This document shows, piece after piece, positions 2,041 through 64,000 of a stretch of 64,000 nucleotides of DNA (position 1 is its first letter; each line of letters opens with the position of its first letter). The notes beneath the pieces were generated by a model. The model saw nothing but the letters and a program-made list of their open reading frames with translations. It had not been told where the DNA came from and made no database searches. The stretch covers positions 16,921,840 through 16,985,839 of the forward strand of contig CAVNZM010000001.1 in the NCBI GenBank assembly GCA_963693365.1, in the 5' to 3' direction. The position numbers were made by a program, and so were the translations under genes. Source of the stretch: Amoebidium appalachense. Taxonomy: Eukaryota > Protista > Ichthyosporea.

Positions 2041-7052
<5,012 letters not shown>

Positions 7053-7864: not shown

Positions 7865-9454
7865 TTTTTTCTTTTGACTGGATTTATTCAACGGAAAGAT
7901 ATGCAAGTATGCACGGCATACGGAGAAGACAATAAAAACTTCACGAGTTATCCAGTAACAAGTGCATACTGAGATACCTGAACACTGTGTGAAAATCATA
8001 TAAATACTCAATGTGACGACCAACAGAAATCAACAAAAAGTCTAAAGTGTTCACATTGCCAGCTAGTGTAGCAGATACCCGGAGGGAAAGAGGTAAAACA
8101 CGACATAAAAATTCACACCTATCAACATGCTTGCGATTAAAAAGGTCAGCACAAAAGTGGCACCAGCGGCGATGAAAACAAGAATTACAGCGCCACTGCA
8201 CAACTTCCCAGGCAATATCAACATCAGAGCACCATACAGACTTATCTACTAGGGTGGTATCCATACGTACAGCAGGAGAAATGTATCCTGCCAAAGCTCC
8301 CAAAAAGCGATAATGATCAGTACGGTGTTGCCTAAGGAACATAACACATGCCGACTGAGTTTTACCTTTGATTTCTCTATCAGAACGAGAAAGAAACTTA
8401 TACTGCGTATGGTAATAACGCGAAAAGGCAGAAAAAACAGGAAGAGAAAAGAAAGAGGGAGTGAGATAGCGAGAGGAAGAGTCAGGTGGAAAGAGGGTAG
8501 GCTGAGGACCTTCAGAAGTAGCGTTGGTGAATCGGGGGGAAGAGGGATGGAGGGAGGGGGGGGAAAGAAAGCATAAAGAGGGTGACCATCAGGTAGCCTA
8601 ACTAAATGAAAACAAAAACAAAGAGACAATTCCTCCATACGACAAACAGCTGACGACAATCCAACCATACTGATCAAAGGAGGCACAAACCGAGTACGAA
8701 ATAAAGTGCGTAGCGCAGTACCCTGAAAATTGTCGAACTCGTTCAGCGCCATTGCCGCCTCGCGAGGTGGGGCGCAGGCCAATAGCGGAAGTCCATATTC
8801 GAAAGTCGGCCGTAAAAAAGTTTTATAGTAGAGAAGAAGGTTCGCAGGATGGATCACAGACTCCTGTTGAAACATATTTGACACGATGTGAAGCTTACCC
8901 TTCGCACGAGCGATCCGTGCCGTGAGGAGCTTGCGGAAATCAATACCCCGTGCAGTAAAAGGAATACCCAAATAGTCATAGGTGCTCTGAACAGGAATAG
9001 GAAGGCCGGCCAATCGAAAGGAAGTGTTCTTCGAAAAAGTAGCACACTTTGCAATTCCGACTGTCATGAGATGCTCGGTGCACCATTGATCCACCTGACG
9101 AAGCATCTGGTGCATGACATCTTCGGTTAAGGAACAAAGAACAATATCGTCCGCAAAAAGGAGACCCGGTACACGGCGGGTATGCAGTTGGCCAAAGGGT
9201 TCAAGGGCGCAGGCTAAATCGTCAATGAAAACGTCAAACAACAACGGACTCAGGAGGGACCCCTGCAGAAGACCCCGGGAACGGGAAAAACCGGGTGTTA
9301 ATGTTCCATTGACCGCCGCTCATCCGCGAGTGGTATCGAACAACGCTTGCAGAAGACGGCCAAAGGGGGCTGCTAAGCCCCGCATAGCCAGCTTATGCCA
9401 TAACAAACCAGTGGGTACGGTGTCGTAGGCGTTCTTAAGGTCGATGAAGACAAC
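7865..9454 (-). mobile_element. 5'-truncated non-LTR retrotransposon (LINE) with RT and C-terminal Cys/His region
   Basis: RT motifs FIDLKNAYD, GLLQGSLLSPLLFDVFIDDL, LFADD, YDYLG. One in-frame TGA near 9320 and a frameshift near 8300. AATAAA followed by an A-tail at 7865-7885 on the minus strand. 10-bp TSD gtgtatatct at 7855-7864 and 9455-9464. Confidence 0.93.
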
Positions 9455-10340: not shown

Positions 10341-30055
<19,715 letters not shown>

Positions 30056-31590: not shown

Positions 31591-32046
31591 GGCACAAATA
31601 CACCCACATATGCACAGGCGGCCACACATATATGTGCACCAGATCTAGGGCATTCGGATCCGGTGTCCTCCCGGAAAGGCTTCCCCCCCCCCCCCCCCCC
31701 CCCTCCCCCCCCCCTTCCGTCGTGGCATGGCACTCACCCCCTCCCCTGAGACTGGTCTCTGTACCTCATAACTCCTAATTACAGTTACTCTGATAAAAGG
31801 CATGCAAGGTTTGATTGCATGTGTTAGTGCAGACTTCTATTTAAGGCTCAGTTACCGTGTACGGTATGTATGTATTCATGAACTGATTCGGTGGAGATCC
31901 CTGGCATGTCAATGGCCATTCGTGTCATGGCATCAAAAGCTCAGCTATATTCAATGTCCTATATGGTGACAAAATACGCACCGTGCCTTGCATGGCGAAG
32001 ACTGACAGATACTGGAGTATTTCTCCATGGTGAGATAGTTAAATGT

Positions 32047-32870
32047 GCGGCATCCCTTGGCGGCTCCTTTGCTGAGTGTCTTTGGTCTTCCGCCGGCGAG
32101 TCAGCGTATGAATGAATTAGGTCTTCGCTTTTGTTTTCATTTAGCTAGGCTTCCTTCTTCTCATCCTTTGTTGCAATTCTTTCCTTCTTTAGAATCTGTT
32201 CCCATTTCTAATATCCGTGCAAGATGTCCCATCCCCATTTTATCTCCTATTCAGAGATATCCTTTTAATTATTTATCTCCTTCATTTTTCTCTTCAACTA
32301 TCTATCAGCAGTATGTTACTTGGTTTCATACTCACTGACAGTATCATTTGCTTCATCGTTGTGATAAAGAGTATCACGGTAGGAATCTTGAGCCTGTGCT
32401 TATTTTTATCTTAGAGACTCGTTTATTTTCCTTGCAATCATTGTGTAAATTGGCTACTGGTATTTCTCCTTCCTCTCGTAAACCTACTACTCTTACTGAT
32501 TTTGCAATTCTTACCCTTTCTTGTGATATTGCTTGGAAAAGTTTATGTTGGCGTTGTAACCTTTCTTTCCACAAACGTTTGTGCCATTTTTGATAGATGT
32601 ATTTATCTATCTCAGATAAATTATTCCGTCGGAAGTTCGACGGCTGGCTTATTTAGATAATCCTGATATTACGTCTATTGATTATCTATTAAGGCCTTAA
32701 ATCACCGTATGTTTAACAAGTTTTCTAGGGTGTATGATTATTTAATTTATCATCTCCTCCATGTCCGGGAGTAAGGATTTCTGTGTTTCTCCTCCGCTGA
32801 GATATCTGTGATATCTCCATGGCCTCTACTTTGACGAGCACATCAATAAAGTCATAATAAAAAAAAAAAA
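32047..32870 (+). mobile_element. 3' fragment of a related LINE family
   Basis: MNELGLRFCFHLARLPSSHPL matches MEELSLCFCFHLVRLPDGHPL of the 7865 copy. CDIAWKSLCWRCNLSFHKRLCHF matches that copy's C-terminus. AATAAA plus poly-A at ~32845-32871. Possible TSD aaatgt at 32041 and 32869. Confidence 0.8.
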
Positions 32871-33283: not shown

Positions 33284-33356
33284 TCCTCCGTGGCGCAATC
33301 GGCAGCGCGTTCGGCTGTTAACCGAAAGGTCCCTGGTTCGACCCCAGGCGGGGGAG
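33284..33356 (+). tRNA. trnN-GUU: tRNA-Asn (GUU)
   Basis: Full cloverleaf: acceptor TCCTCCG/CGGGGGA, D-arm GCGC/GCGC, anticodon arm TTCGG-CTGTTAA-CCGAA, T-arm CCTGG-TTCGACC-CCAGG, discriminator G. T5 Pol III terminator at 33362. Confidence 0.97.
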
Positions 33357-33399
33357 CATCCTTTTTATTTTTCTTACCTTTTTCCCCTTCAAGTTTTAT

Positions 33400-34115: not shown

Positions 34116-34445
34116 AAGGAAATGCATTAACGAGCATTTCTAACAGCACCGACCCTAGGGCCTAGGGCATATCCTTCATAGGCGCCGTTGAGCACATGTG
34201 ACCAGGTTCGAAGTTACAATGGGCGCTCCGCTGACTCAACCGTTGAAGCACAGAGAATCTGTATCAAACTTGTGCACTGTAAGGAAATGCATTAACGAGC
34301 ATTTCTAACAGCACCGACCCTAGGGCCTCGGGCATATCCTTCATAGGCGCCGTTGAGCACATGTGACCAGGTTCGAAGTTACAGTGGGCGCTCCGCTGAC
34401 TCAACCGTTGAAGCACAGAGAATCTGTATCAAACTTGTGCACTGT
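34116..34445. repeat. 165-bp tandem duplication, 2 copies
   Basis: aaggaaatgcattaacgag... starts at 34116 and 34281. I see only two substitutions between the copies. Confidence 0.95.
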
Positions 34446-34912
34446 ATTGACTTCATTCAACTTTGTGTGCACAACTGTTAGCACCTCATAAACACGGCAC
34501 TAACTTCCGATCCATTGACTTGGGCAACAAGACACCCACTCGAAAAGCCCCTGTACATGTTGAAAACGTTTCACTTGTTCCCGAGCTGTAATAGCGCGGC
34601 TTGTGATATTAGTTGTTGTTCGCAAGAATTTGGCAGTGCCATTTCATTCAGCGTCACCTATGTATAAAAGTCAACCCTCCCCTCCCAATCCCCAAGCAGC
34701 ACCTATGTTATGAAAATAGACTGTAAGTACGATTTGTAGGCTCGTGTTAGTGGGGCAACACAATACAAGTACGTTGGGAACCATTTCTTTTGGGTGCCGC
34801 TGCTAAGCCCTCCCAATCTAACCTACCACATCCAAACTAAAAAATAGCACGGTGACTCATACATTCCTAGTATACCACCTCCTGACCCAACACATCATCC
34901 AAATCTAAAGGT

Positions 34913-38035: not shown

Positions 38036-38076
38036 TTTTTTCTTTCTTTTGACTGGATTTATTCGACGGAAAGATA
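38036..38076 (-). mobile_element. ~41-bp extreme 3' end of the 7865 LINE family
   Basis: ttttgactggatttattcgacggaaagata matches the 7865 copy end with one mismatch. TSD tgcatttc at 38028-38035 and 38077-38084. Confidence 0.8.
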
Positions 38077-40111
38077 TGCATTTCAAACACTACAAAAATT
38101 TACAGGAAACGGCAGTAACTGTTTCAAATACTATCAACCTAATAGACGGTAGTTGGAAAAACAAACAACTTGTACCAAGAAAAAAAGGCATATGAAATAA
38201 GGAAATTGTTTTTGTAGTCCTGCAGGACACACTCATAAGTGACGTACTGTAGGCGTGCGCGCGTCCCTGCCCGGGTCATTGCACATTGCAACGGCGTCCC
38301 GGCGGCGCCCGCGGCCCACAATAGTGAAATAAAGCAATTGGTAAGTACGTCACCATGCCGCATGATGCCATATATTGTACGGCCAGCCGAACAAGACGAG
38401 CCCTTTTATATATACAAATTTTTAAGTTTCGTCTAGACTGACAAGTACATGGCTATCTTCAGTTATTATTTTCTACATCTTTTATATTAGACAATGCAGG
38501 CATACATCATCATTGACAACGAGAATCGCAATATTGATCTGTGAAAAAGACCAAAAAAACGTTGACAACATTTACACGGCCTCCTTGACACTCTGGACCG
38601 CACAAGATCAGCCTGGCAGAAATTTCACGATACGCTGTCATTCCAAAGTCTGGAGGGCTATCAGGCAAGGAGGTGCGTGGACTGTGTGCTTTGCCTTGAC
38701 ATGATTGGCCGGTCAAGGGTGCAAAAATAGAATGTGATCCTCGAGGATGTCTTTGCCACAAAACAGCATCGAGGTCTCGAGATAAGGAGATCGATATCGA
38801 GGTGCTGGGGTCAACTGCCGCGGCCCGCAGTCCGCACCAGACAGCTAGATTCAAAAGAAATTTTTTGATTGTAGGCCTACATACCTTTGCATCGGAGTTG
38901 ACCCCTCTGCGCCGAGTCTGCGGATTCAGTGCGGACGATACGGAGCGTGGCTGAATATATCACGTTTACCGATCGGAAATGATGAGTCCGCATGGTGATT
39001 GGACCAAGAGATTGATTTGAACTTTATAATGATTTTTTCGAGGGAAGAAGCTTCGGCTGACCAATCAAAACGATACCACAACGTATTATTTAGATTCGTG
39101 CCTGCAAACTACCGGTAAAGAATTCGGTATCTAAATTTTCGAATTCGTCGGAAATTTTCTGCAGATGGGGGTTACCCGAACCTCAACAGTGTTTGCAGCG
39201 GGCAGCGAAAAATTAACAGTCAGAACAAGACCTTCTGAGGGAGTTTAGATGAAGATAAACTAAAGCCAACAGCTTTTTTGAGCTGCCTATGTATTTTTGT
39301 ATATTTTCCCGTTAATCTGTAATGATTCATCAAGCGGGCAAACGGAGCTCCTGTTTTAAAACCCGGTTGTTTTGAAGGGGTTGAACATTCAAGAGTCACT
39401 TCAAATTGATTCCAAGCAACATAGAAATCGTGCCTCCGGCACGCACGGCCCGCCGAGACGTGAACCGCCCTCAAGTTGAATTGAAGCCTTGGCCAAAATC
39501 AGCTGATACCGTATGCGTGACCCCATTTTATTTGTCCATATCACCGCGCGCGCATGATCACTCACTGAATCACTCCTTTGTTTGGCTTTCAAATTCAGTA
39601 AAGGGAGAAGCTTTACCGAATGGTAAACTTTTTATTTTTAATACATGACGTGTTTGTGCCACGGTCGAAGTCCCCTTATACAGTCCTGTGCTCAACTCAA
39701 GTTGATTCAACACAGTGATGATGGAATCTGATCCTCCCATCTTCAACTTCGTCACCACGTGCACTAGTGACTGGGAATGAAGTATGTAATAGCCTCACTA
39801 TCATAATGCTTTTTTTTTCTTAAGTCCGTAAATTAAACACTAAGCACTCAGTGATGTAATTACATTATGATATGATGTGCTACCGATTTAAGAAAACTTT
39901 GCTGGCCAGTGACTCAGGACGCCACATGTCACATGTGTACACAGTCTGACAGTACACTGCGGTCACTGTCAGGCTCATGATCAGTGACGTCAGTGTACGT
40001 GATAAACCTATTGATTGAATGGCCATAGCTGTGCGTGACCCCTCGCCGACCCCCCGACCCGTGGCCACGGCAGATCATGCTGGGGCCTGGGTCAGGGGCA
40101 TGCGGCATTAA

Positions 40112-40811: not shown

Positions 40812-40907
40812 TTAAGGGCTATTAGACTCGGCCGGACTGGGCAAACCAGCGAGCAGCTGCAGCATAAACTGACTCAGTGCCCGAAGGAGTCCCGTGTTCG
40901 AAACCAT

Positions 40908-41098
40908 TTTTTCTTTTGACTGGATTTATTCGACGGAAAGATATGCAAGTATGCACGGCAAGTATACTGAGAAGACAATAAAAACTTCACGAGTTATCCA
41001 GTAACAAGTGCATACTGAGATACCTGAACACTGTGAGAAGACAATAAAAACTTCACGAGTTATCCAGTAACAAGTGCTTACTGAGATACCTGAACACT
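40908..41098 (-). mobile_element. ~190-bp 3' end of the 7865 LINE family with an internal ~64-bp duplication
   Basis: Matches 7865-7990. The segment gagaagacaataaaaacttcacgag..tgaacact occurs twice. TSD aaaccat at 40901-40907 and 41099-41105. Confidence 0.88.
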
Positions 41099-45623: not shown

Positions 45624-51349
<5,726 letters not shown>

Positions 51350-53699: not shown

Positions 53700-55300
53700 A
53701 GAAAGGAGGCAACTAACTGCTTTAAGGAAATTTGCCAAGGGTTCAAAGTAAGCGATCTAGTTCTCTCTTTCTTGATCCAAGCGGCGAGAAGGGGTAAACC
53801 ATATTCACATATGCCGGGAAGACAAAAGTGCGAATAAATGTAAGTCTAATAGAACTTCAAGGATGGACTCGAGGGGTGTGTCTTAAAAAATATTAGCCGA
53901 GAAGGATTCTAACCGCAAGCTTCCGAGCCAACTCTACCCTCTTTTCGACCATATGGGAAAACATAACACCTGGTACAGGATTAACCGGAACACCAAGATA
54001 TTTGTATTCTGGAACTATAGGTACAGGTTTAGATAATAATGTAATTGTGTGTAAATTGTTAGCTATATCAGGTACAAGAACACCACATTTGTCTATGTTA
54101 AGGATCATAAGGTTTGCCTTGCACCACTCTGATACTACATCGAACAATCTTTGCAGGCGTAGTAGGGGTACGGGCAAGGAGGGACAGGTCATCTCAGCAT
54201 AGAGAAGTGCAGGCGGAAAGTTATTAATAGGGTCATCAATTTCGGCATAAATCTTGACAGCCAAATCATCTATAAATAAGTTAAACAAAAAGGGGCTAAG
54301 CAATGAACCCTGCAAGAGACCTCTAGTACGAGCAAAAACATATGAAAGATGCCCATTAACCACAGTTCTACCATAGGTTTGAGACAAGAGTGCTTCTAAC
54401 AGAACACCAATGCAGTGTGGTACACCCCGTGCAGCAAGCTTTTCCAATAGTAGGAGACCAGGGGAAACAGAATCGTAAGCAGTTTTCCAATCAATAAAGC
54501 CAACATATCGTGCACCAACTTGCATAGAATCGTGCAGTGCCATTATTTGAACTTATTAACATGAATTGTTCTTACGAAAAGCGGATTGGCATGGGTATGT
54601 GTGAAGAATAAATTGAAACCTAGGGTGATGTGCAAATAACCTAAGTAAGCAAGCTTCAAAGAATCTAAGAACAACCTGGTTAGTGTGATGGGGCGAAAAG
54701 ATGATATGGGGCCCTCAAAGACGTCCTTCTTAACTATGGGGATCACTAAGGTATCTAACCAAGATGACGGGACATGTCCACATTTAACACACCAACAAAA
54801 GAGAGAGCTTAACATAATAGTAAGATTAGGTTTAATAGCACGATCACTTTCCTTTTGTGGGTAGGAGGGAACAAGGATTTTAAGAAACTTAGCAGGAAGT
54901 CCATCCCATCAGGTCCACAAGACTTACTACAATCACAGACCATATGGTTTCGGGACTGAAAAAGGGGAGGATCGATTCTATGGGGATAGATGGGTCTACA
55001 GGCCACACAATAGGTTTCTGAGCGGGGGTCCTATCTTTGAACAGTTCCGAGAAATACTTATCAGAGTCTATGAGGGGGTCTCCAGTGGTATCACCAATAA
55101 TACTCGAGCAGGGGGGCCAAATTTGTAGCAAGCCGGCGCGCAAGCTTTCCTTTTGAGACAGGCCTGGGCTAATAACTTTTGAATGAAGCATTTTAACCAA
55201 TCATCGTGTGCTATAAGCCCATGACGGTTTCATCCCAGCTACTACGTTGGTCGGCAAAGAATAGATCTACAGTATCCTTTCCTCGATAATGTCATGCATA
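53700..55300 (-). mobile_element. Decayed LINE (RT region with several frameshifts), boundaries approximate
   Basis: Motifs split over several frames: GPDG, VPSSWLDTLVIPIVKK, FRPITL, FIDWKTAYD, GLLQGSLLSPFLFNLFIDDL, LLYA, YKYLG. Confidence 0.88.
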
Positions 55301-55655: not shown

Positions 55656-56277
55656 ATGCTACCCGGAAGTCAATCGCAAGGGCGGACTAGAACGCCAAGC
55701 AGACGGTACAAGTTCTTTAGACGGCTGCTCAATTTCAGGCAGCTGGACTTCGAAGTAGCCCTCTACCAGATGCGAGATCTATGCATTGGTATGCAACCAA
55801 AACCCAACCTCCACGCTCCTACTCGCCTGCCTCCCTCCCCCCCCCTCCCCCCCCCCCTCCCCCCCCCCCCCCTCCCCTCCCCCCCCCCCCCCCCCCCCTC
55901 CCCCCCAAGGAAAAAAAAGAAAAAAAAAAAACACCCCACCCCACTTTCGGATGTTTGACTCTGCTTTGATGCACATGTCTTTGTGTATGCTTTGCAGACT
56001 TTGCATGGTGTTGCCGTTCATGAAATGTGCAGTTTATATTCTGTAATGATTTCTACATCCCTCCTCCCCCCTCCCCCCTCCCTCTTCCTCTCTCTCTCTC
56101 TCCCCGCCTCCTCCCCCTCTTCCTTCCTCAGCTCTTTCCCCTTTTCTGTTCACTGTGCCCTGGCTGCCACCCTTACCCACGGATCCCTCATATGCAACCC
56201 CCTCTCCCCTCCCCCCCCCCCCCCCTCCCACCCTTCGGGCCCCCCAGCCTTCACCCCACCATGGGCCCTTTTCGTTG

Positions 56278-56367
<90 letters not shown>

Positions 56368-56401
56368 ACGCACACACGCGCGCGCGCACACACACACACA
56401 C

Positions 56402-56440
<39 letters not shown>

Positions 56441-58973
56441 CACCAGCAGCAGCTCGCGCACACACACACTCTCTCTGGCGCAGACACCTCCCCCCTTACC
56501 CCTCCCCCTCCCCCCACCCCACCGCACCTATCCACCCACCCACCACCGACCTTCAGCTCCACACCCTCCAAAACGTTTCTCGTCGTTTCCTCCTCGATAT
56601 TCCTCTGTTTTTCGAACGCATGTGCTCTGACCAATATGTTAATGCACCCCGTTCTCCGCAGCGCCACATAAAGTCTACCGCAACTTCCAATACCACAAAC
56701 AGACCAAGAATCAATGGGCTAGAGACGACCCTGCTTTTCTCGTTCTTTTGGCAGGTACGGTGTGGGGGAAAGTTTGGGTTACAGTGTGTATCACCTAAAT
56801 ATTCCCTTCCCTTCTGCTCCAAGCCGAACCGTTTTTATATGTCAATTTGCCACTAGAACTTCAGCAATCGTTGTATGGTGAACATGGAATGTGGGTTGCA
56901 TCTGGAGAAAATGAGGTATCTGACCACCAGTGGTATATTCAGTTGTGCACTTGCAAGTCGGCATGGGGACGAGTGCACAGGGAGGATAGCACACTGGAGT
57001 GAACTGTCCATCAATCTACGTGTGGGAGATGTGTGTGTGTGTGTTCTTTTTTTTTTTTTTTTTTTTTGGGGGGGGGGGGGGGAGGGGGGGGGAGGGGGGG
57101 GGAGAGGGGTTGCATGAGCCTAAATACGGACACAGCGCACAGGCGCGCACACACACATAGGCGACAACAAACACATTCTTGCAGTCACCAATGTACGGCC
57201 GTTCTTAGGGCATCCCGCCAGACACCAATATCCACTACTCACCCTTCTTCGCTTCCACCATGCTTCTCACATTTAGCTTCCACGTGGCCTGCTTACTATG
57301 CACTCACCCCATCGCCAACCTCCTAACCTCGCTCACTTTGGGCTTTTTATCTTGTACAGCATTTTTTAACCCCCTCTCCCCCTCCCCCCCTCCCCCCCCC
57401 CCCCCCCCCCCCCCCCCCCTCAGTTTCAGTTTTGGATTTCCCTTGTGCAATCACCATAGATGCCAATTTCTAACATCCAATCTGGCACGCAAAGTGCATC
57501 ACATCGGAACACGCCCAAAGCAAGGAAAACATAGCTTTGACCCCTACAAACCATGCACCAGACCCTCATTTTATTTTTCACTATTCCCCCCCCTCCCCCA
57601 ACCCTTCCCTCTTCCCCCCTCTCTCCCCCAACCACATCCACCACCACCATTACCACCACGGGGTCGAAACTCAGATATTGTGAATGACTTGGCTCCGTGA
57701 GGATGGGCTCTACTTATGATGCATTCTTTTTGTGTGTGCTTGGCAAGCTCTGCATTTTTTTGTCCATCCTGTGTTCCTCCTGTGACACATTCTATACCCC
57801 CCCCACCCGATTGTGTGATTTGCAATCTCTGTTGTGTTGTTCGTTGTTAACGTGTTTTTCGTACTCTGTGGCACATTACTCCCTCCCTCCCCTCTCCCCC
57901 CCCCCCCCCCCCCCCCCCCCCCGGGGGACGTGTTCCAAAACAAACCCCTATAGCTACACATTACACATACAGCTACCAACATCACTCGTACGTCGGCCAC
58001 ACCCAACCACCACCTCATGTACCACACACCCCGCCTTTCCCCCCCCTAACTTAAGGAGCTAATACCTTACCCCGCATCACAGCTAACGTGCCCTTACTAA
58101 CCCAGTGTATCTTGCAGTGTCCCTGTGCATCACATCGTTTGCGTTTTCGATGTACTTTTGGTTTCCGTGGTGGAAGTTTATTGTCTTCACCCTCTACGTC
58201 ATCTTTGTGGACTGTGTGGGTATTGGTGCCGTAATAGCAACAATAAACTGGGCGCTGGCAAATAAATATCTCAGGTGAGTCACCTTGATTTCCTTCTGTC
58301 TTCGGATAGATTGTGTTTGACTAACAATGATGCTCCAGCTACCTCAGATACATACAATCATGTTTATTTCTATTTGTAGGCAATATGTATGATGCCCTGT
58401 GTTTTTTCCTGGTGCATCTTAGTGCGTTGTACCGTGCCCCTCCCCCCCCCCCCCCCCAAAAAAAAAAAAAAAAAAAAAAATAGAAACAACCTCCTCTTCC
58501 CCGTCCTCCTCCCCCTTGCGTTCTCTTCTTGTCTTATGGGTAAAGGTGCGTGTAGGTTTGGGGGGGGGGGGGGGGGGTATCTATGGCACACCTTCAACCC
58601 CTCTATCACCCCCCACTACACCATACTAAAATGTTCAACCATCATTTTGCCCCGCCACAGGCAATCTCTGCCCCACACAGTGCCGGAGAATGTTGAGTGG
58701 GCATATGCGTTTGACGTGCACTGCAACTCGTTCTTCCCCCTGCTGCTGATCCTGCATGGGCTGCAGCTGATCCTCATGCCCCTGATCACCCTTGACAACA
58801 TGGTGTCCGTGCTGGTGGCAAACACCCTTTATCTGCTTGCCGTGAGGTATGCTGGGGGTGATGTTTGGGAACATGAAGTCGTTGTGTAGAATGGGCAGAC
58901 ATAGTTCTTCGTGGGTGGTGGTGGTGGTGTTTTTTCTTTTTTCTTTTTTTTTTTTTTTGTAAAGGGGTGGGGG

Positions 58974-59027
<54 letters not shown>

Positions 59028-59712
59028 GAGTTGAGGTTGTCGCATATCTGTTGTCGAAATTTGCGTCCCCTGGATATGGGCTGCTACTGTTGCGCTGCCG
59101 TGCATTGACATCCCCCCGAAACAGTATCTGAGTTGGGTTTCGTTAACGAGGGGAATAGGTCGAAACTCGGGTACTGTGGATGACGTGGGCCCCCCCTGAG
59201 GATGGGCTCTGCTTATTATGCATACTCTTTATGTATGGCTTGCATTCTGCATCGTGTTATCCGTTTGTTCTTGTGTACTTCGTACTTTTTGACGCATTCA
59301 AAACCCCCCCCCCCCCCTCCCCCCTCCCCCAATTTTTTTCTTTTTCGTTTTTTTTTTTTTTTTTTTTTTTGTGGGGGGGGGGGGGGGGGGGGGGGGGGGG
59401 ATTGACCTATTCTGATGTGATACACGCTGTTGCCAAATTTGTACGGCACTGCCCGTCGTCTCTCCCCTCTCCTCCCCCCGCCCCACACACACACGCGCAC
59501 ACACGCATACACACACGCACCGCAGGCTCATGCACATATACACACATACACACGGGCAGACACGCACACAAGCCACTCTTGATGTATTGTTTGCACTCTG
59601 CATCGTGTGATCAGTTGTTCTTGTGTACTTCGTACTTTATGACGCATTCAAACCCCCCCTTCTCCCCCCTTTTTTCCCTGACAGTCATCACTCCCAGGCA
59701 CCATATACACAT

Positions 59713-59784
<72 letters not shown>

Positions 59785-59983
59785 ATACATACATACATAC
59801 ACCGACAGCTACTACATCTACATTACGTTCCTGGGGTTCCGTGAGCTCCCCTTCCTCGGCAACACCACCGTGTTCCTTCTACCCATCGGTTTGGTCTTTG
59901 TTATTTACGTAATTTCGTTGATTTTGAGATGGAATATCAGTCGTGCGGTGTTGACAGGCTGGTATGGCATCAGCTTCACGTAA
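55656..59983 (+). CDS. UNC50: UNC-50 / GMH1 Golgi membrane protein
   Basis: Exons 55656-55788, 56662-56754, 58118-58274, 58661-58846, 59809-59983. Motifs: RRLLNFRQLDFEVALYQM, KVYRNFQYHKQTKNQWARDDPAF, VEWAYAFDVHCNSFFP, YYIYITFLGF..LPFL. Confidence 0.96.
57660..57760 (+). repeat. Diverged copy of the intronic structured repeat (UNC50 intron 2)
   Basis: ggggtcgaaactcaga..tgacttgg..tgaggatgggctctacttatgatgcattc. Confidence 0.75.
59106..59310 (+). repeat. Intronic structured repeat variant 2 (UNC50 intron 4), with a further partial copy at ~59570-59660
   Basis: A 14-bp stem acagtatctgagtt/aactcgggtactgt encloses the tcgttaacga hairpin, followed by ctgaggatgggctc..gcattcaaa. Confidence 0.85.
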
Positions 59984-61005
59984 ATCGTGCACTATTTTAT
60001 TCCATAGCTGATGTACGGTGATGCATGCACCCCTTGTAAGGGTGTGATCGATCACCCTGGTCCTTATCTACTTGCACAATGCACAGGTGACTAGGCAGAT
60101 CTTTGGAGGATATGCTGTTTGCTTCTGCCAGTAGAACCTTTGCTAATTAGTTTATGAGAGATAATTTACAGAACAGCGTGTCGATGGTGAACCGTGAATG
60201 AAACATACGGCGTATGCTTGTGTGGTGAGTCCTCGTTTGTTGTGTGTGTGGCAGAGGTGTTTCAAGTTTAAATTGTATTATATTGCAGCCTCTTTCTGTG
60301 GGCTATATTTCCATCCTCTTTATGCAACATGGTCAATTATCATGAAGAACAAAGCAGGTATACCCATGGGGCAATGGCTGGGTAATAGAGCGCAATCACT
60401 GTTTCTTGAAGAGCATGTGCACTTGTAACGTTGGGTTGTCCGTAGGGACACACGATCACTTTCTGGTTGCACGCTCCACACCTGGATTGTGGCCCTGGCA
60501 ACTCAAATGAGAATAAACGAGCCTGTCCCCTTATCAATGTCATGTGAGTTGAAAAACACATTCTGTCTCTTATCCATTAGCACATACGAACCTTGTCATA
60601 ATTTTTCCCCAGTTCAATTATATTACGTAAACATAATAAAATTAGGAATATAGCAGACATATGTATTTACAATCGCCTTTTGCATCTAATCGCTTACGAT
60701 TGGAGTCAACTTTCTCCTTCATAGAAAATTTGATTAATTGAAGCGATTGCAAATGAGTTTCACCCGACGCAGCCTAACCGGAGTCACCACAACACTCCCG
60801 GACTTGCGTGTTGGGGCTACTTTACGTAATTATAAGAGACTTGAGCTACAGTGCGTTGCCTATAGTGATATCCTAGTACAATACAGAGCGTTCTTGCTAG
60901 CATATGGGCAGGTGAACTTGCAATTAATCCACCGTTGCACAGCCTCCGGTAGAGTGTTACCTGTGCAAAGCAGCTTGGAAAACAGCAGCCCACGGCAGGC
61001 TCAAC

Positions 61006-61916
61006 ATGGCTGGTGAGTGGATGGTTTTGTTGATGTTTATTTCCTTTAGGGGTAATGAAAAGAGTACTGGCAGGTGTGTTTGGAAGAACGGTGTGCTGTG
61101 TTCCCTAGGATGTCTCTCTCGGCATGCTCTTTCGTCTGACGTCTATGCATGCTTTGTTTAGGCGCGAGCACTGCACTTGTGTCGTTGTTACATGAAAGAA
61201 AAATGATTGCTTTCCTTAGAGCTTTAGAGCTATGGGACTTTTTCAAAATCTCTTTTCCTGCCCCAGCACTTGGAGAGCATAGTGTCTTCTAGTTGCTGGT
61301 TAAGTTCATTAGCCTGCACAGAAGAAGGTTGAGATGAACGTGCAAGATCTCCTGGCAGGATTTCTGTCTTAGGTAGTAATAATCCATCCTGTTTGGCCTT
61401 ATTTTTTTTGCAAGGCACGTGCGTGTTAAGGGCTGGCGTGTTTTCCCCCTTGTCTCCTGGTGACGTGTTAACGGCCTACTGTTGAGCATTCACTGGGCTC
61501 TTTGTAATGAACGCTGAAGCTATACGCTTTGGAATGGTTAACAGAAACAGCAGGGGGGCTGTCCTTTTTCACCCCAAGTGTGTACAGGTGCTTTTATCTA
61601 TGCTTGTTTACTGTGTGGGACTGTGTGGGACACAGCGTGTCACATATTTCCGTGTCAGTTTGTGACTCGTCGCCCTAATCTGCTTGCGAAAACCGCATGC
61701 TGGACTTATCACCGTCACCCTTTTCCTATTCATTTCCTATCTGCCACGTGTGCATGGACTTTGGTGTACACAGGCACAAGCTAGATCTCGTGGTTTTTGG
61801 CACACACAAGTTCATCCCTCTGTCTTCTCCCCCCCTCCCCCCTCTCCCTGCTTCCAAATACTCCTCATCTTGTTTGCACGCGCACATGCTCGCATGCACG
61901 CACACACCCGCATCCA

Positions 61917-61982
<66 letters not shown>

Positions 61983-63680
61983 CACGTACACACACAAACA
62001 CAACCACGACACCTTGTCAAGCCCCCATCCCTCCCCTTTACTCCTCCTGTCTCTCCTTCCTTCTTCCCCACCTCTACCACCCATTCCCCTTCCACCAAAT
62101 TCTCTGTCCCTCCTGTTTTCCCTCTCTCTCCCCCTCTTTTTCTCTTTTTCTTCCCCCCCCCCCCCCCCCTGAGTTGTGGGCCCCCCCGGAGGATGGGTGG
62201 GCTCTGCTTATTATGCATACTCTTTATGTATGGCTTGCATTCTGCATCGTGTTATCCGTTTGTTCTTGTGTACTTCGTACTTTTTGACGCATTCAAACCC
62301 CCGCCTGAGTTGGAGCGTCGTATCTAGGCGGGCTAAGGGGTCGAAACTCAGACGCAATTGATGACTTGGGCCCTCCCTGAGGATGGGCTCTGCTTATGAC
62401 GCATACTGTGCACATGGCTGATGTTGCATACTTGAATGTTTGCCTTTTGCATGTGTCCTGCACCATGCTTCTCGTCGTGTATGCGTACTTCATACCGTGT
62501 TCCGCATTCAAACCCCCCCAGTCTTCTTTCAGAGGTGTCCTTTCAGGACAGACCACTGTGTGGAGTCCGCTTTACTTTATACAACCGGGCATGGTTGCTC
62601 TGTGTTGTGCATCTGTAAGCACATACGCATTTTTCGCTGCACTGCATTAGTTTGCACACACATCTTCACCGTCCTTCCTTGCATAAGCAACCCTGCTCGT
62701 CTTTGAACAAGACGAGTTGACCCGCCCAAGTTCAGTTAATGCTGCTGTCTGAGTTGGAGCGTCGTATATACGCGGGCTAAGGGGTCGAAACTCAGACGCA
62801 ATTGATGACTTGGGTCCTCCCTGAGGATGGGCTCTGCTTATGACACATACTGTGCACATGGCTGATGTTGCATACTTAAATGTTTGCCTTTGCATGTGTC
62901 CTGCACCATGCTTCTCGTCGTGTATGCGTACTTCGTACCGTGTTCCGCATTCAAACCCCCCCAGTCTTCTTTCAGAGGTGTCCTTTCAGGACAGACCACT
63001 GGGTGGAGACCGCTTTACTTCCATGCAACCGGGCATGGTTGCTCTGTGTCGTGCATCTGTAAGCACATACGCATTTTTCGCTGCACTGCAGTAGTTTGCA
63101 CACACATCTTCACCGTTTTGCTCACCTTGCTTGCATAAGCAACCCTGCTGGTCTTATCAAGACGGATTGACCCGACCAAGTTCAGTTGATGCTGCTGTCT
63201 GAGTTGGAGCGTCGTATATCCGCGGGCTAAGAGGTCGAAACTCAGACGCAATTGATGACTTGGGTCCTCCCTGAGGATGGGCCCTGCTTATGACGCATAC
63301 TGTGCTCATGGCTGATGTTGCATACTTGAATGTTTGCCTTTGCATGTGTCCTGCACCATGCTTCTCGTCGTGTATGCGTACTTCGTACCGTGTTCCGCAT
63401 TCAAACCCCCCCCCAACCCCCCCCTCCCCCCTCCCCCCTCCCCCCCCCCCCCCCTTCCTCCCCCCATCCCCTCTCCCCGTCTCCTCTCCTTTCTCTTTCT
63501 CTCCTCCCCAATTCTCACCCACCGCCTCCACCAGACTACGTCAACAAGGACCAGATCTCTCTGGACAACGATGGAGAGGACGTGCAGGAGCAGCAGAGTG
63601 CACCTGGAAAGGCAAAGACAGTGGGCAGATCTGCAAAGGAGGAGAGGCTGAGAAAGCTGCAGGACCTGAAGCTGAGGAGG
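61006..63680 (+). CDS. SYF2: Pre-mRNA splicing factor SYF2, 5' part (continues beyond the window)
   Basis: ATG GCT G|gtgagt (61006-61012) joins in phase to 63535-63680, giving MADYVNKDQISLDNDGED..AKEERLRKLQDLKLRR|gtatgt. This resembles the SYF2 RLRKxRELxxxR(NEAR) helix. Only one informative exon is visible. Confidence 0.62.
62169..63414 (+). ncRNA. Candidate retrozyme/viroid-like element: a variant-2 fragment (62169-62301) followed by ~2.5 head-to-tail copies of a 444/450-nt unit
   Basis: Unit starts (ctgagttggagcgtcg) at 62305, 62749 and 63199. Extensive self-complementarity with G-U pairs and hammerhead core words. The tandem repeat is certain; the ncRNA call is an inference. Confidence 0.5.
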
Positions 63681-64000
63681 GTATGTGGGGGGGCTGTGGA
63701 GCGGAGGGGCTTTTTTTGGGGGGGGGGGGGGGGGGGGGGGAAGGAATGAAGAAGAGGAGGGGTGGTGTGTATGTGTGTGGTGGGGGACCGGGGTGGGGAG
63801 TGGGGGTGGGGGGGGGGGGAGAGGGGTTTAGCAAGGATAAGGAGGGGTGTGGCAAGGGTGGACGGGAAGGATGTGGGGAGGGGGGGGGGGGGGGGGGTTA
63901 TGTTTGAATGTGCCAAAGAGTGTGAGGGGAAGAGTTTATGGGGATGAATGAGGGTGCATGGATGGTGGAGGGAGGGAGCTCCGAAAGGCAAATACGTAGG

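What the first reader, a model, noticed from the sequence alone, without database searches (positions are those of the whole stretch)
62305..63414. Head-to-tail ~445-nt units that fold into a viroid-like branched rod (candidate circular-RNA retroelement)
Seen: about 2.5 tandem units (444 nt, 450 nt, partial), non-coding, with no TIR or poly-A. Nested helices around 62770: gtctgagtt/aactcagac, tcagtt/aattga, cccaagt/acttggg, two side hairpins (ctcgtctt/aagacgag and tcctc/gagga), cataagca/tgcttatg, tgcaca/tgtgca, cattagtt/ggctgatg, gtaagca/tgtttgc, gcatggt/accatgc. The opposite end is closed by ccagt/actgg with a tgtcct/aggaca hairpin, so a circular monomer would be paired nearly throughout. Many pairs are G-U, and variant 2 (59106-59185) keeps the central stem with different sequence, which points to RNA-level selection. 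Known: retrozymes are tandem 170-1000 nt non-autonomous elements copied from ribozyme-processed circRNAs. Inference: rolling reverse transcription of a circular RNA, possibly a new retrozyme family or an endogenised viroid-like RNA.
Basis: partly seen in the sequence, partly recalled or inferred. Interest (0 to 1): 0.88.

Follow-up and report, generated by a model that had tools for sequence, protein, structure and literature searches.

The report
Poly-C-targeting, Penelope-type tandem jumping repeat
This is one insertion of an abundant 445-base non-coding repeat whose copies in this window all end at runs of C, likely pasted in by the enzyme of a Penelope-like jumping gene; the whole unit is not predicted to fold like a viroid, but a 170-base part keeps a predicted RNA fold across subfamilies that matches no known ribozyme.

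Summary
The viroid reading fails its own test. Whole-unit folding is no better than shuffles (circular z -2.0 to +0.6; linear -1.7 to +1.0), and closing 62520-62962 into a circle adds no pair. No hammerhead, HDV or Rfam ribozyme was found. The array is one of 10 insertions of the family in this window. All 10 end at a C-run or C-rich tract (background 0.7% of positions), have variable 5' ends, and several stack on older copies. Genomic runs hold thousands of pieces. This matches non-autonomous Chlamys-type Penelope-like elements (head-to-tail copies, 5' truncation, (C)n targets, no hammerhead). The host is likely a unicellular holozoan, where my searches found none described. The partner enzyme was not found (no genome held), so membership is unproven. 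What survives of the RNA idea: a 170-nt junction (62680-62850, z -4.3) with compensatory and G-U changes between two subfamilies, plus a second, competing helix that also covaries. Circular RNA and expression are untested.

The parts
62305..63412 (+). whole insertion, A-B-A-B-A: a 5'-truncated copy (A) followed by two full B+A monomers
62305..62512 (+). A1, 3' part of the monomer (pseudo-LTR-like); begins at (C)TGAGTT
62513..62519 (+). internal C7 run, first monomer junction; inferred priming site
   Evidence: motif list; consensus joint 62955->62513
62520..62962 (+). full monomer 1 (B1 62520-62748, A2 62749-62955, C7 62956-62962)
62963..63412 (+). full monomer 2 (B2 62963-63198, A3 63199-63405, then C-run); carries private changes that break helices
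62680..62850 (+). predicted multi-branch RNA domain spanning the B/A boundary: closing stem 62682-62689/62835-62842, hairpin 62696-62716, long stem 62725-62755/62789-62814, hairpin 62815-62827
62717..62788 (+). second helix UUGACCC (62717-62723) with GGGUCGA (62782-62788); becomes UGACCUA/UAGGUCG in subfamily 2; competes with or crosses the long stem
   Evidence: loose-end consensus
63406..63480 (+). C-rich tract directly after the 3' end (target)
62170..62302 (+). older subfamily-2 copy; the array sits in its terminal C-run
59575..59660 (+). 5'-truncated copy in the same UNC-50 intron
57658..57881 (+). two stacked 5'-truncated copies (57658-57803, 57812-57881) in another UNC-50 intron
2230..2557 (+). 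two stacked copies (2230-2375 old; 2377-2557 subfamily 2)
47186..47300 (-). 5'-truncated copy on the minus strand, again ending in a C-run on its own strand
17216..17328 (+). old diverged copy ending in a long C-run

Best explanation
The array is one insertion of an abundant non-coding repeat whose copies end at C-runs, and it is likely a non-autonomous retroelement that borrows the reverse transcriptase and endonuclease of a Chlamys-type Penelope-like element (PLE). Shown: A-B-A-B-A layout; fixed 3' end at TTCAAA-(C)n; variable 5' ends; C-rich flanks; stacking of new copies on old ones; at least two subfamilies; a conserved predicted fold at the B/A boundary. Inferred steps: (1) the C-rich (+) strand is transcribed from a tandem master locus as a multimeric RNA; (2) the PLE endonuclease nicks the G strand of a genomic (C)n:(G)n tract, and the freed G-run primes reverse transcription at an internal C7 of the RNA; (3) the enzyme usually stops early, giving 85-215-nt A-only copies, or runs through several units, giving A-B-A-B-A; (4) each insertion leaves a C-run, so later copies land on earlier ones; (5) the conserved 170-nt domain is a cis signal (enzyme binding, promoter or RNA 5' end), since 3 of 10 insertions begin at the same TGAGTT position in it. 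A circle could serve as template but is not needed.
For: nhmmer listed 19 matches; 12 have E<1e-3 and form 10 insertions (6 of the 12 built the model). All 10 are followed by a run of 5 or more C or a C-rich tract, against 0.67% of positions on both strands. Their 5' ends differ and mostly follow C-rich sequence. In DNA runs X1 and X2, 15,132 and 6,173 contig pieces lie on 62160-63430. Listed joints link the 3' C-run of one copy to varied start points (62371, 62378, 63006, 63009, 63247, 63314), and loose ends after the 3' end are C-runs (X12 also runs on into (CA)n). The monomer closes head-to-tail at the C-run in three runs (62955->62513). Four copies lie in UNC-50 introns, in sense orientation. 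Craig et al. 2021 (PMC8557442, sections 9-10 and passages read): Chlamys PLEs show frequent 5' truncation, partial tandems, targeting of (C)n and (CA)n and mostly no canonical hammerhead; their non-autonomous forms give 'multicopy head-to-tail insertions'. Lopez-Cortegano et al. (10.1101/2022.05.23.493040, passages): de novo Chlamys insertions have median length 128 bp and all fall in introns, at (C)n. Frangieh et al. 2024 (PMC11167929, parts 1-2 of 4): a PLE starts reverse transcription inside its RNA and does not need hammerhead cleavage.
Against: No autonomous PLE was found: no genome is held, and the two RT remnants in the window are LINE-like and share no sequence with the element. The 30-40-bp PLE 'tail' and an adjacent inverted copy were not seen in the 10 window insertions. 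Target-site duplications cannot be read in C-runs. Chlamys elements were not reported from holozoan protists in the paper read ('ichthyospor' 0 occurrences). Frangieh et al. found the priming site NOT homologous to the cut DNA, which goes against my step 2. The nhmmer model ended in a short C-run, which helps weak copies end there. Folding energy does not separate RNA from DNA (DNA z -5.0 and -5.4 on the two strands). Two family-level variants (62815, 62818 T>C) break the small hairpin on +.
Confidence: 0.6

Rival explanations
1. Retrozyme-like circle with an unknown ribozyme: the 170-nt domain cuts at GUC/AUC|UGAGUU, the monomer is ligated, and a PLE-type enzyme copies round the circle from the C7 run. 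This is compatible with PLE mobilisation and differs in the template.
For: 3 of 10 insertions, from both subfamilies, start at the TGAGTT position (62306, 62170, and 2377 with one change); both subfamilies have NUC just before it. A covarying second helix that competes with the long stem would allow two conformations. Multimeric insertion.
Against: No hammerhead candidate in 8 strand scans and no HDV-like candidate with a P1 partner in 6; no Rfam ribozyme. The monomer folds no better than shuffles and gains nothing from closure. Other 5' ends are scattered, and one copy starts 11 nt upstream of the site (59118). In the predicted fold the site lies inside a helix.
Confidence: 0.15
2. SINE-like element mobilised by a LINE or other non-LTR retrotransposon that targets C-runs, with a degenerate Pol III promoter (A-box-like TGTCTGAGTTGG at 62746, B-box-like GGTCGAAAC at 62783).
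For: Fixed 3' end and 5' truncation fit any target-primed copying. A- and B-box-like motifs match with one mismatch each in both subfamilies. The 5'-end cluster lies near the A-box-like motif.
Against: No tRNA call or Rfam tRNA hit. Likeness to the window's own tRNA-Asn is no better than shuffles (420 and 933 of 1000). A T5 run inside B would stop Pol III. No shared 3' end with the LINE remnants in the window. Multimeric head-to-tail insertions are atypical of SINEs (general knowledge).
Confidence: 0.12
3. Non-autonomous rolling-circle DNA transposon (Helitron/Helentron/Replitron type); the hairpins act on single-stranded DNA.
For: The domain folds equally well as DNA. Rolling-circle elements insert in one orientation, mostly without TSD, and carry hairpins (PMC10288648, passages).
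Against: The hairpin domain is central, not terminal. Single-sided changes are mostly G-U on + (7 of 9 counted; and the, 47 loose ends). The targets described in the passages read are AT, TT, RG or a tetranucleotide, not C-runs.
Confidence: 0.07
4. Satellite or fold-back MITE, or an endogenised viroid-like replicon.
For: Tandem units; local inverted repeats.
Against: Only 2.5 units here; dispersed copies with one fixed end; no terminal inverted repeats; no viroid-grade folding, no ribozyme; no sequence relative among 118 pattern hits in metagenome and viral contigs.
Confidence: 0.06

Closest known systems
Non-autonomous Chlamys Penelope-like elements of Chlamydomonas (MRC1, Chlamys-N4_cRei); Craig et al. 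2021 PMC8557442, Lopez-Cortegano et al. 10.1101/2022.05.23.493040
   Same: Non-coding, pseudo-LTR/partial tandem and multicopy head-to-tail insertions, heavy 5' truncation to ~100-200 bp, (C)n target, intronic copies, no canonical hammerhead
   Different: Host is likely a unicellular holozoan, not a green alga or slime mould; a conserved structured domain with covariation; autonomous partner not identified; no sequence comparison with Chlamys elements was possible
Animal non-LTR retrozymes (Cervera and de la Pena 2020, PMC7229834; Li et al. 10.64898/2026.07.22.740005)
   Same: 150-450-bp tandem non-coding units; proposed PLE dependence
   Different: No type I hammerhead; monomer not strongly self-paired; circles not shown; copies here lie in introns whereas Li et al. 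report exclusion from introns in Xenopus
Anolis Poseidon PLE (Frangieh et al. 2024, PMC11167929)
   Same: Tandem layout; reverse transcription starts inside the RNA; cleavage not required
   Different: Autonomous, AT-rich target, carries a hammerhead and a tail; priming site not homologous to the target

Membership tests
Non-autonomous Chlamys-type PLE | Partial-tandem / pseudo-LTR and head-to-tail insertions | tested here: met
   A-B-A-B-A; consensus joint at the C-run
Non-autonomous Chlamys-type PLE | Frequent 5' truncation with a fixed 3' end | tested here: met
   10 insertions; joints
Non-autonomous Chlamys-type PLE | Insertion at (C)n or (CA)n | tested here: met
   10 of 10 end at C-runs or C-rich tracts vs 0.67% background; empty sites not seen
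Non-autonomous Chlamys-type PLE | No canonical hammerhead | tested here: met
Non-autonomous Chlamys-type PLE | 3'-end similarity to an autonomous N-terminal GIY-YIG PLE of the same genome | not testable with these tools
   no genome held; no PLE ORF recognised in the window
PLE in general | Optional 30-40-bp tail or adjacent inverted 5'-truncated copy | tested here: inconclusive
   not seen in the 10 window insertions; optional in the paper read
Non-LTR retrozyme | Type I hammerhead in each unit | tested here: not met
   GAAAC lies upstream of CUGAGGA and no stem II can form
Non-LTR retrozyme | Tandem units of 150-450 bp | tested here: met
   443-450 nt
Non-LTR retrozyme | Monomeric linear and circular RNA in the cell | not testable with these tools
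   only contigs; the circle junction equals the genomic tandem junction
Viroid-like RNA | Highly self-paired rod or branched circle beyond chance | tested here: not met
Viroid-like RNA | Known ribozyme in one or both polarities | tested here: not met
tRNA-derived SINE | tRNA homology | tested here: not met
tRNA-derived SINE | Internal A and B boxes | tested here: inconclusive
   one-mismatch matches mid-monomer; T5 inside the unit
MITE | Terminal inverted repeats | tested here: not met

The most novel reading that the evidence does not exclude
The 170-nt domain is a new class of self-cleaving ribozyme or RNA switch. It alternates between the long stem and the covarying UGACCC/GGGUCG helix, cuts at NUC|UGAGUU, and yields ~445-nt circles that a (C)n-targeting Penelope-like enzyme copies round. 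That would be a hammerhead-free retrozyme in a close unicellular relative of animals.
Probability: 0.12. Interest if true: 0.85.

Novelty: new member of a known kind. Interest (0 to 1): 0.45.

Why it matters
If right, (C)n-targeting Penelope-like activity, described in the papers read from green algae, plants and slime moulds, extends to a unicellular relative of animals, where it seeds introns with thousands of short copies. The element is a small, abundant substrate for an open question: how Penelope-like elements build head-to-tail copies without a hammerhead (multimeric linear RNA or circle). The conserved domain with two competing helices can be tested for self-cleavage in one in vitro transcription.

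Tried and rejected
Whole-genome search: none held. Rfam at E<=10 on 58500-64000 (64 matches, all below gathering score, none inside the array) and on 62500-63000 (2 weak snoRNA matches). Motif scan for hammerhead, HDV, hairpin, twister and pistol cores (motifs recalled) and topology scans: nothing coherent. GGCUAAGGG resembles the antigenomic HDV J4/2 (recalled), but subfamily 2 lacks the C and no P3/L3 fits. A twister-like UAAUGCUGC is not conserved (62738 is G in other copies). Exact 19-mer in metagenome and viral contigs: 0. A gapped pattern gave 89 + 29 loci; none extends beyond the pattern (best E 0.16 among 118), so they are chance. Expression: no RNA holder listed. X17 and X19 are guessed RNA contig runs and cover the element, which does not show transcription. 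X11 (labelled organism D) and X12 hold the element at depth about 17 as one consensus, probably trace DNA, so they are not counted as independent species. A homolog search with a lipase exon was uninformative (1 hit at 38%). Pfam gave no hit for the exon after the array, which I read as SYF2-like from memory. Earlier scan notes on this genome, this sequence and relatives: none. Literature: no paper holds both 'Amoebidium' and 'Penelope' (the genus is my guess at a host, not determined); 5 papers hold 'Penelope' and 'ichthyospor', none on this topic by title (listing only); searches listed nothing on such an element. PMC11244446 passages mention no such repeat. No supplements were read; the Chlamys supplement may hold comparable non-autonomous families. 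The in-silico majority monomer had its 8-nt insertion one base out of register, so its z-scores are approximate.

Full report
Observation. The array is there: 62749-63198 aligns to 62305-62748 at 93% and its first 214 nt to 63199-63412 at 97%. It is best read as A-B-A-B-A, where A (about 215 nt) runs from CTGAGTT to GCATTCAAA plus seven C, and B (about 230 nt) follows the C-run. ATG ORFs within the units are at most 84 aa; there are no terminal inverted repeats.

The viroid test. Linear folding of 62749-63198 gives z +0.76 and +1.01. Circular folding of four monomers on both strands gives z -2.0 to +0.6. The C-run-to-C-run monomer 62520-62962 gives z -1.7 (+) and -1.0 (-), and a family-majority version -1.1 and about 0. 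Its circular fold equals its linear fold and is 6.6 kcal/mol less stable; only 16-34% of bases are in confident pairs. The nested helices all lie within a linear monomer, so they do not imply a circle. One region is clearly structured: 62680-62850, z -4.3 as RNA on + and -3.4 on -, and about -5 as DNA on both strands. The sister junction 63130-63300 is weaker (z -2.2) because of private changes; other genomic copies carry the pairing base at those places (62647, 62698, 62716, 62725, 62782 in monomer coordinates).

Covariation. Subfamily 2 (59118, 2377, 62170) replaces much of the long stem yet keeps 14 contiguous pairs: one G-C becomes A-U and two U-A become U-G. The loose-end consensus at 62714 in six of the eight laid runs (only its first 10 letters in X10) supplies the 5' arm of subfamily 2. 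By inspection, CCCAAGU/ACUUGGG becomes CUCAUGU/ACAUGGG (A-U to U-A, C-G to U-G). Counting family-level single-sided changes, 7 give G-U on + (three between subfamilies; 62715, 62844, 62845, 62856) and 2 give A-C (62815, 62818). These two sit in a small hairpin that has an alternative register. Other listed variants break pairs on both strands (62842, 62760 to A). This is modest support for selection on + strand RNA, from two subfamilies only. A second helix, UUGACCC/GGGUCGA, becomes UGACCUA/UAGGUCG in subfamily 2; it joins an unpaired linker to the apical loop and probably cannot coexist with the whole long stem (inference). Run X9 holds a deeper, diverged relative that covers mainly 62609-62672, 62737-62800 and 62929-62960, that is the central stem and the 3' end; its letters were not seen.

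Ribozymes. Rfam finds none. CUGAGGA and GAAAC are conserved, but GAAAC comes first and no stem II can close in any of 8 strand scans allowing any topology on a circle; no HDV-like candidate has a P1 partner (descriptors recalled).

The family. nhmmer lists 19 matches, 12 with E<1e-3, which make 10 insertions; 7 weaker matches were set aside. All 10 end at a C-run or C-rich tract on their own strand, against 0.67% of positions; the model's own short C end may inflate this for weak copies. 5' ends vary: three start at the TGAGTT position, one 11 nt before it, the rest inside A. Three pairs are stacked (2230/2377, 57658/57812, 62170/62305). Four copies lie in UNC-50 introns. DNA runs X1 and X2 lay 15,132 and 6,173 contig pieces on the array, with summed depths up to 1.5 million; the tool warns this is no copy number. 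Listed joints (15 of 56 shown) include C-runs joined to varied 5' starts. Ten insertions per 64 kb would mean tens of thousands per genome if this window is typical (inference). A UNC-50 exon is 100% identical to a EukProt protein (P0002); the next hit is an Nk52 gene (66%; prefix recalled as the ichthyosporean Chromosphaera), followed by unnamed, fungal and Capsaspora proteins. The host is therefore likely a unicellular holozoan; the genus was not determined.

Mechanism. A fixed 3' end with scattered 5' ends is the signature of target-primed reverse transcription. Partial tandems, (C)n targets, intronic 100-200-bp copies and the lack of a hammerhead together match non-autonomous Chlamys-type Penelope-like elements (PMC8557442 sections 9-10 and passages; 10.1101/2022.05.23.493040 passages). 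PLE reverse transcription starts inside the RNA and does not need self-cleavage (PMC11167929 parts 1-2 of 4), so a multimeric linear transcript primed at its third C7 and copied back to UGAGUU explains this locus. That paper found the priming site unlike the target, which goes against my inferred C7:G-run annealing. The partner is missing: the RT remnants in the window are LINE-like and unrelated to the element, and no genome is held. I therefore say it works like such an element (0.6) without filing it as a proven member.

Comparison and novelty. Against non-LTR retrozymes (PMC7229834 abstract and section 13; 10.64898/2026.07.22.740005 part 1 of 5) it shares unit size and tandem layout but fails the defining hammerhead. 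SINE and rolling-circle readings are weaker. My searches found no description of such an element in holozoan protists; subscription papers and supplements were not seen. Two earlier scan notes describe ribozyme-free tandem elements riding PLEs in animals; they prompted the tRNA test, which was negative here.

Verdict. A real, abundant, probably PLE-dependent repeat; a new member of a known kind in a new lineage. The viroid-like rod is not supported. The conserved junction domain is the part worth a bench test. Interest 0.45; novel case (new ribozyme or switch making circles) probability 0.12.

Noticed in passing
window 63269-63299: Guessed-RNA runs X17 and X19 hold a contig that shares only this 31-nt core (CCCTGAGGATGGG...) and continues 180-255 nt unlike the element on both sides: possibly another family or the autonomous partner's pseudo-LTR.
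   Followed up: no
window 8249-9316 (-), 53893-54905 (-), about 31900-32870 (+): LINE-like reverse transcriptase remnants (RVT_1); the 3' end at 7865-8004 recurs at 40907-41098 and 38040-38080.
   Followed up: partly
window 13912-14703: Near-exact 348-bp direct duplication (13995-14187 is 100% identical to 14343-14535), each unit ending in a long C-run; slippage or recombination at C-runs, or an assembly artefact.
   Followed up: no
window 34116-34446: Two head-to-tail 165-bp units at 98.8% identity, unrelated to the element.
   Followed up: no
window 33284-33357 (+): tRNA-Asn(GTT) gene.
   Followed up: partly
whole window: 150 runs of 8 or more C against 56 of G on the + strand, with many (CA)n tracts; introns are packed with homopolymers.
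   Followed up: no
window 55656-59980 (+): Five-exon UNC-50 gene matching EukProt protein P0002 at 98-100% in four exons.
   Followed up: yes
window 62170-62200: This copy starts TGAGTTG and jumps to the far side of the long stem, as if the hairpin had been skipped during copying.
   Followed up: no
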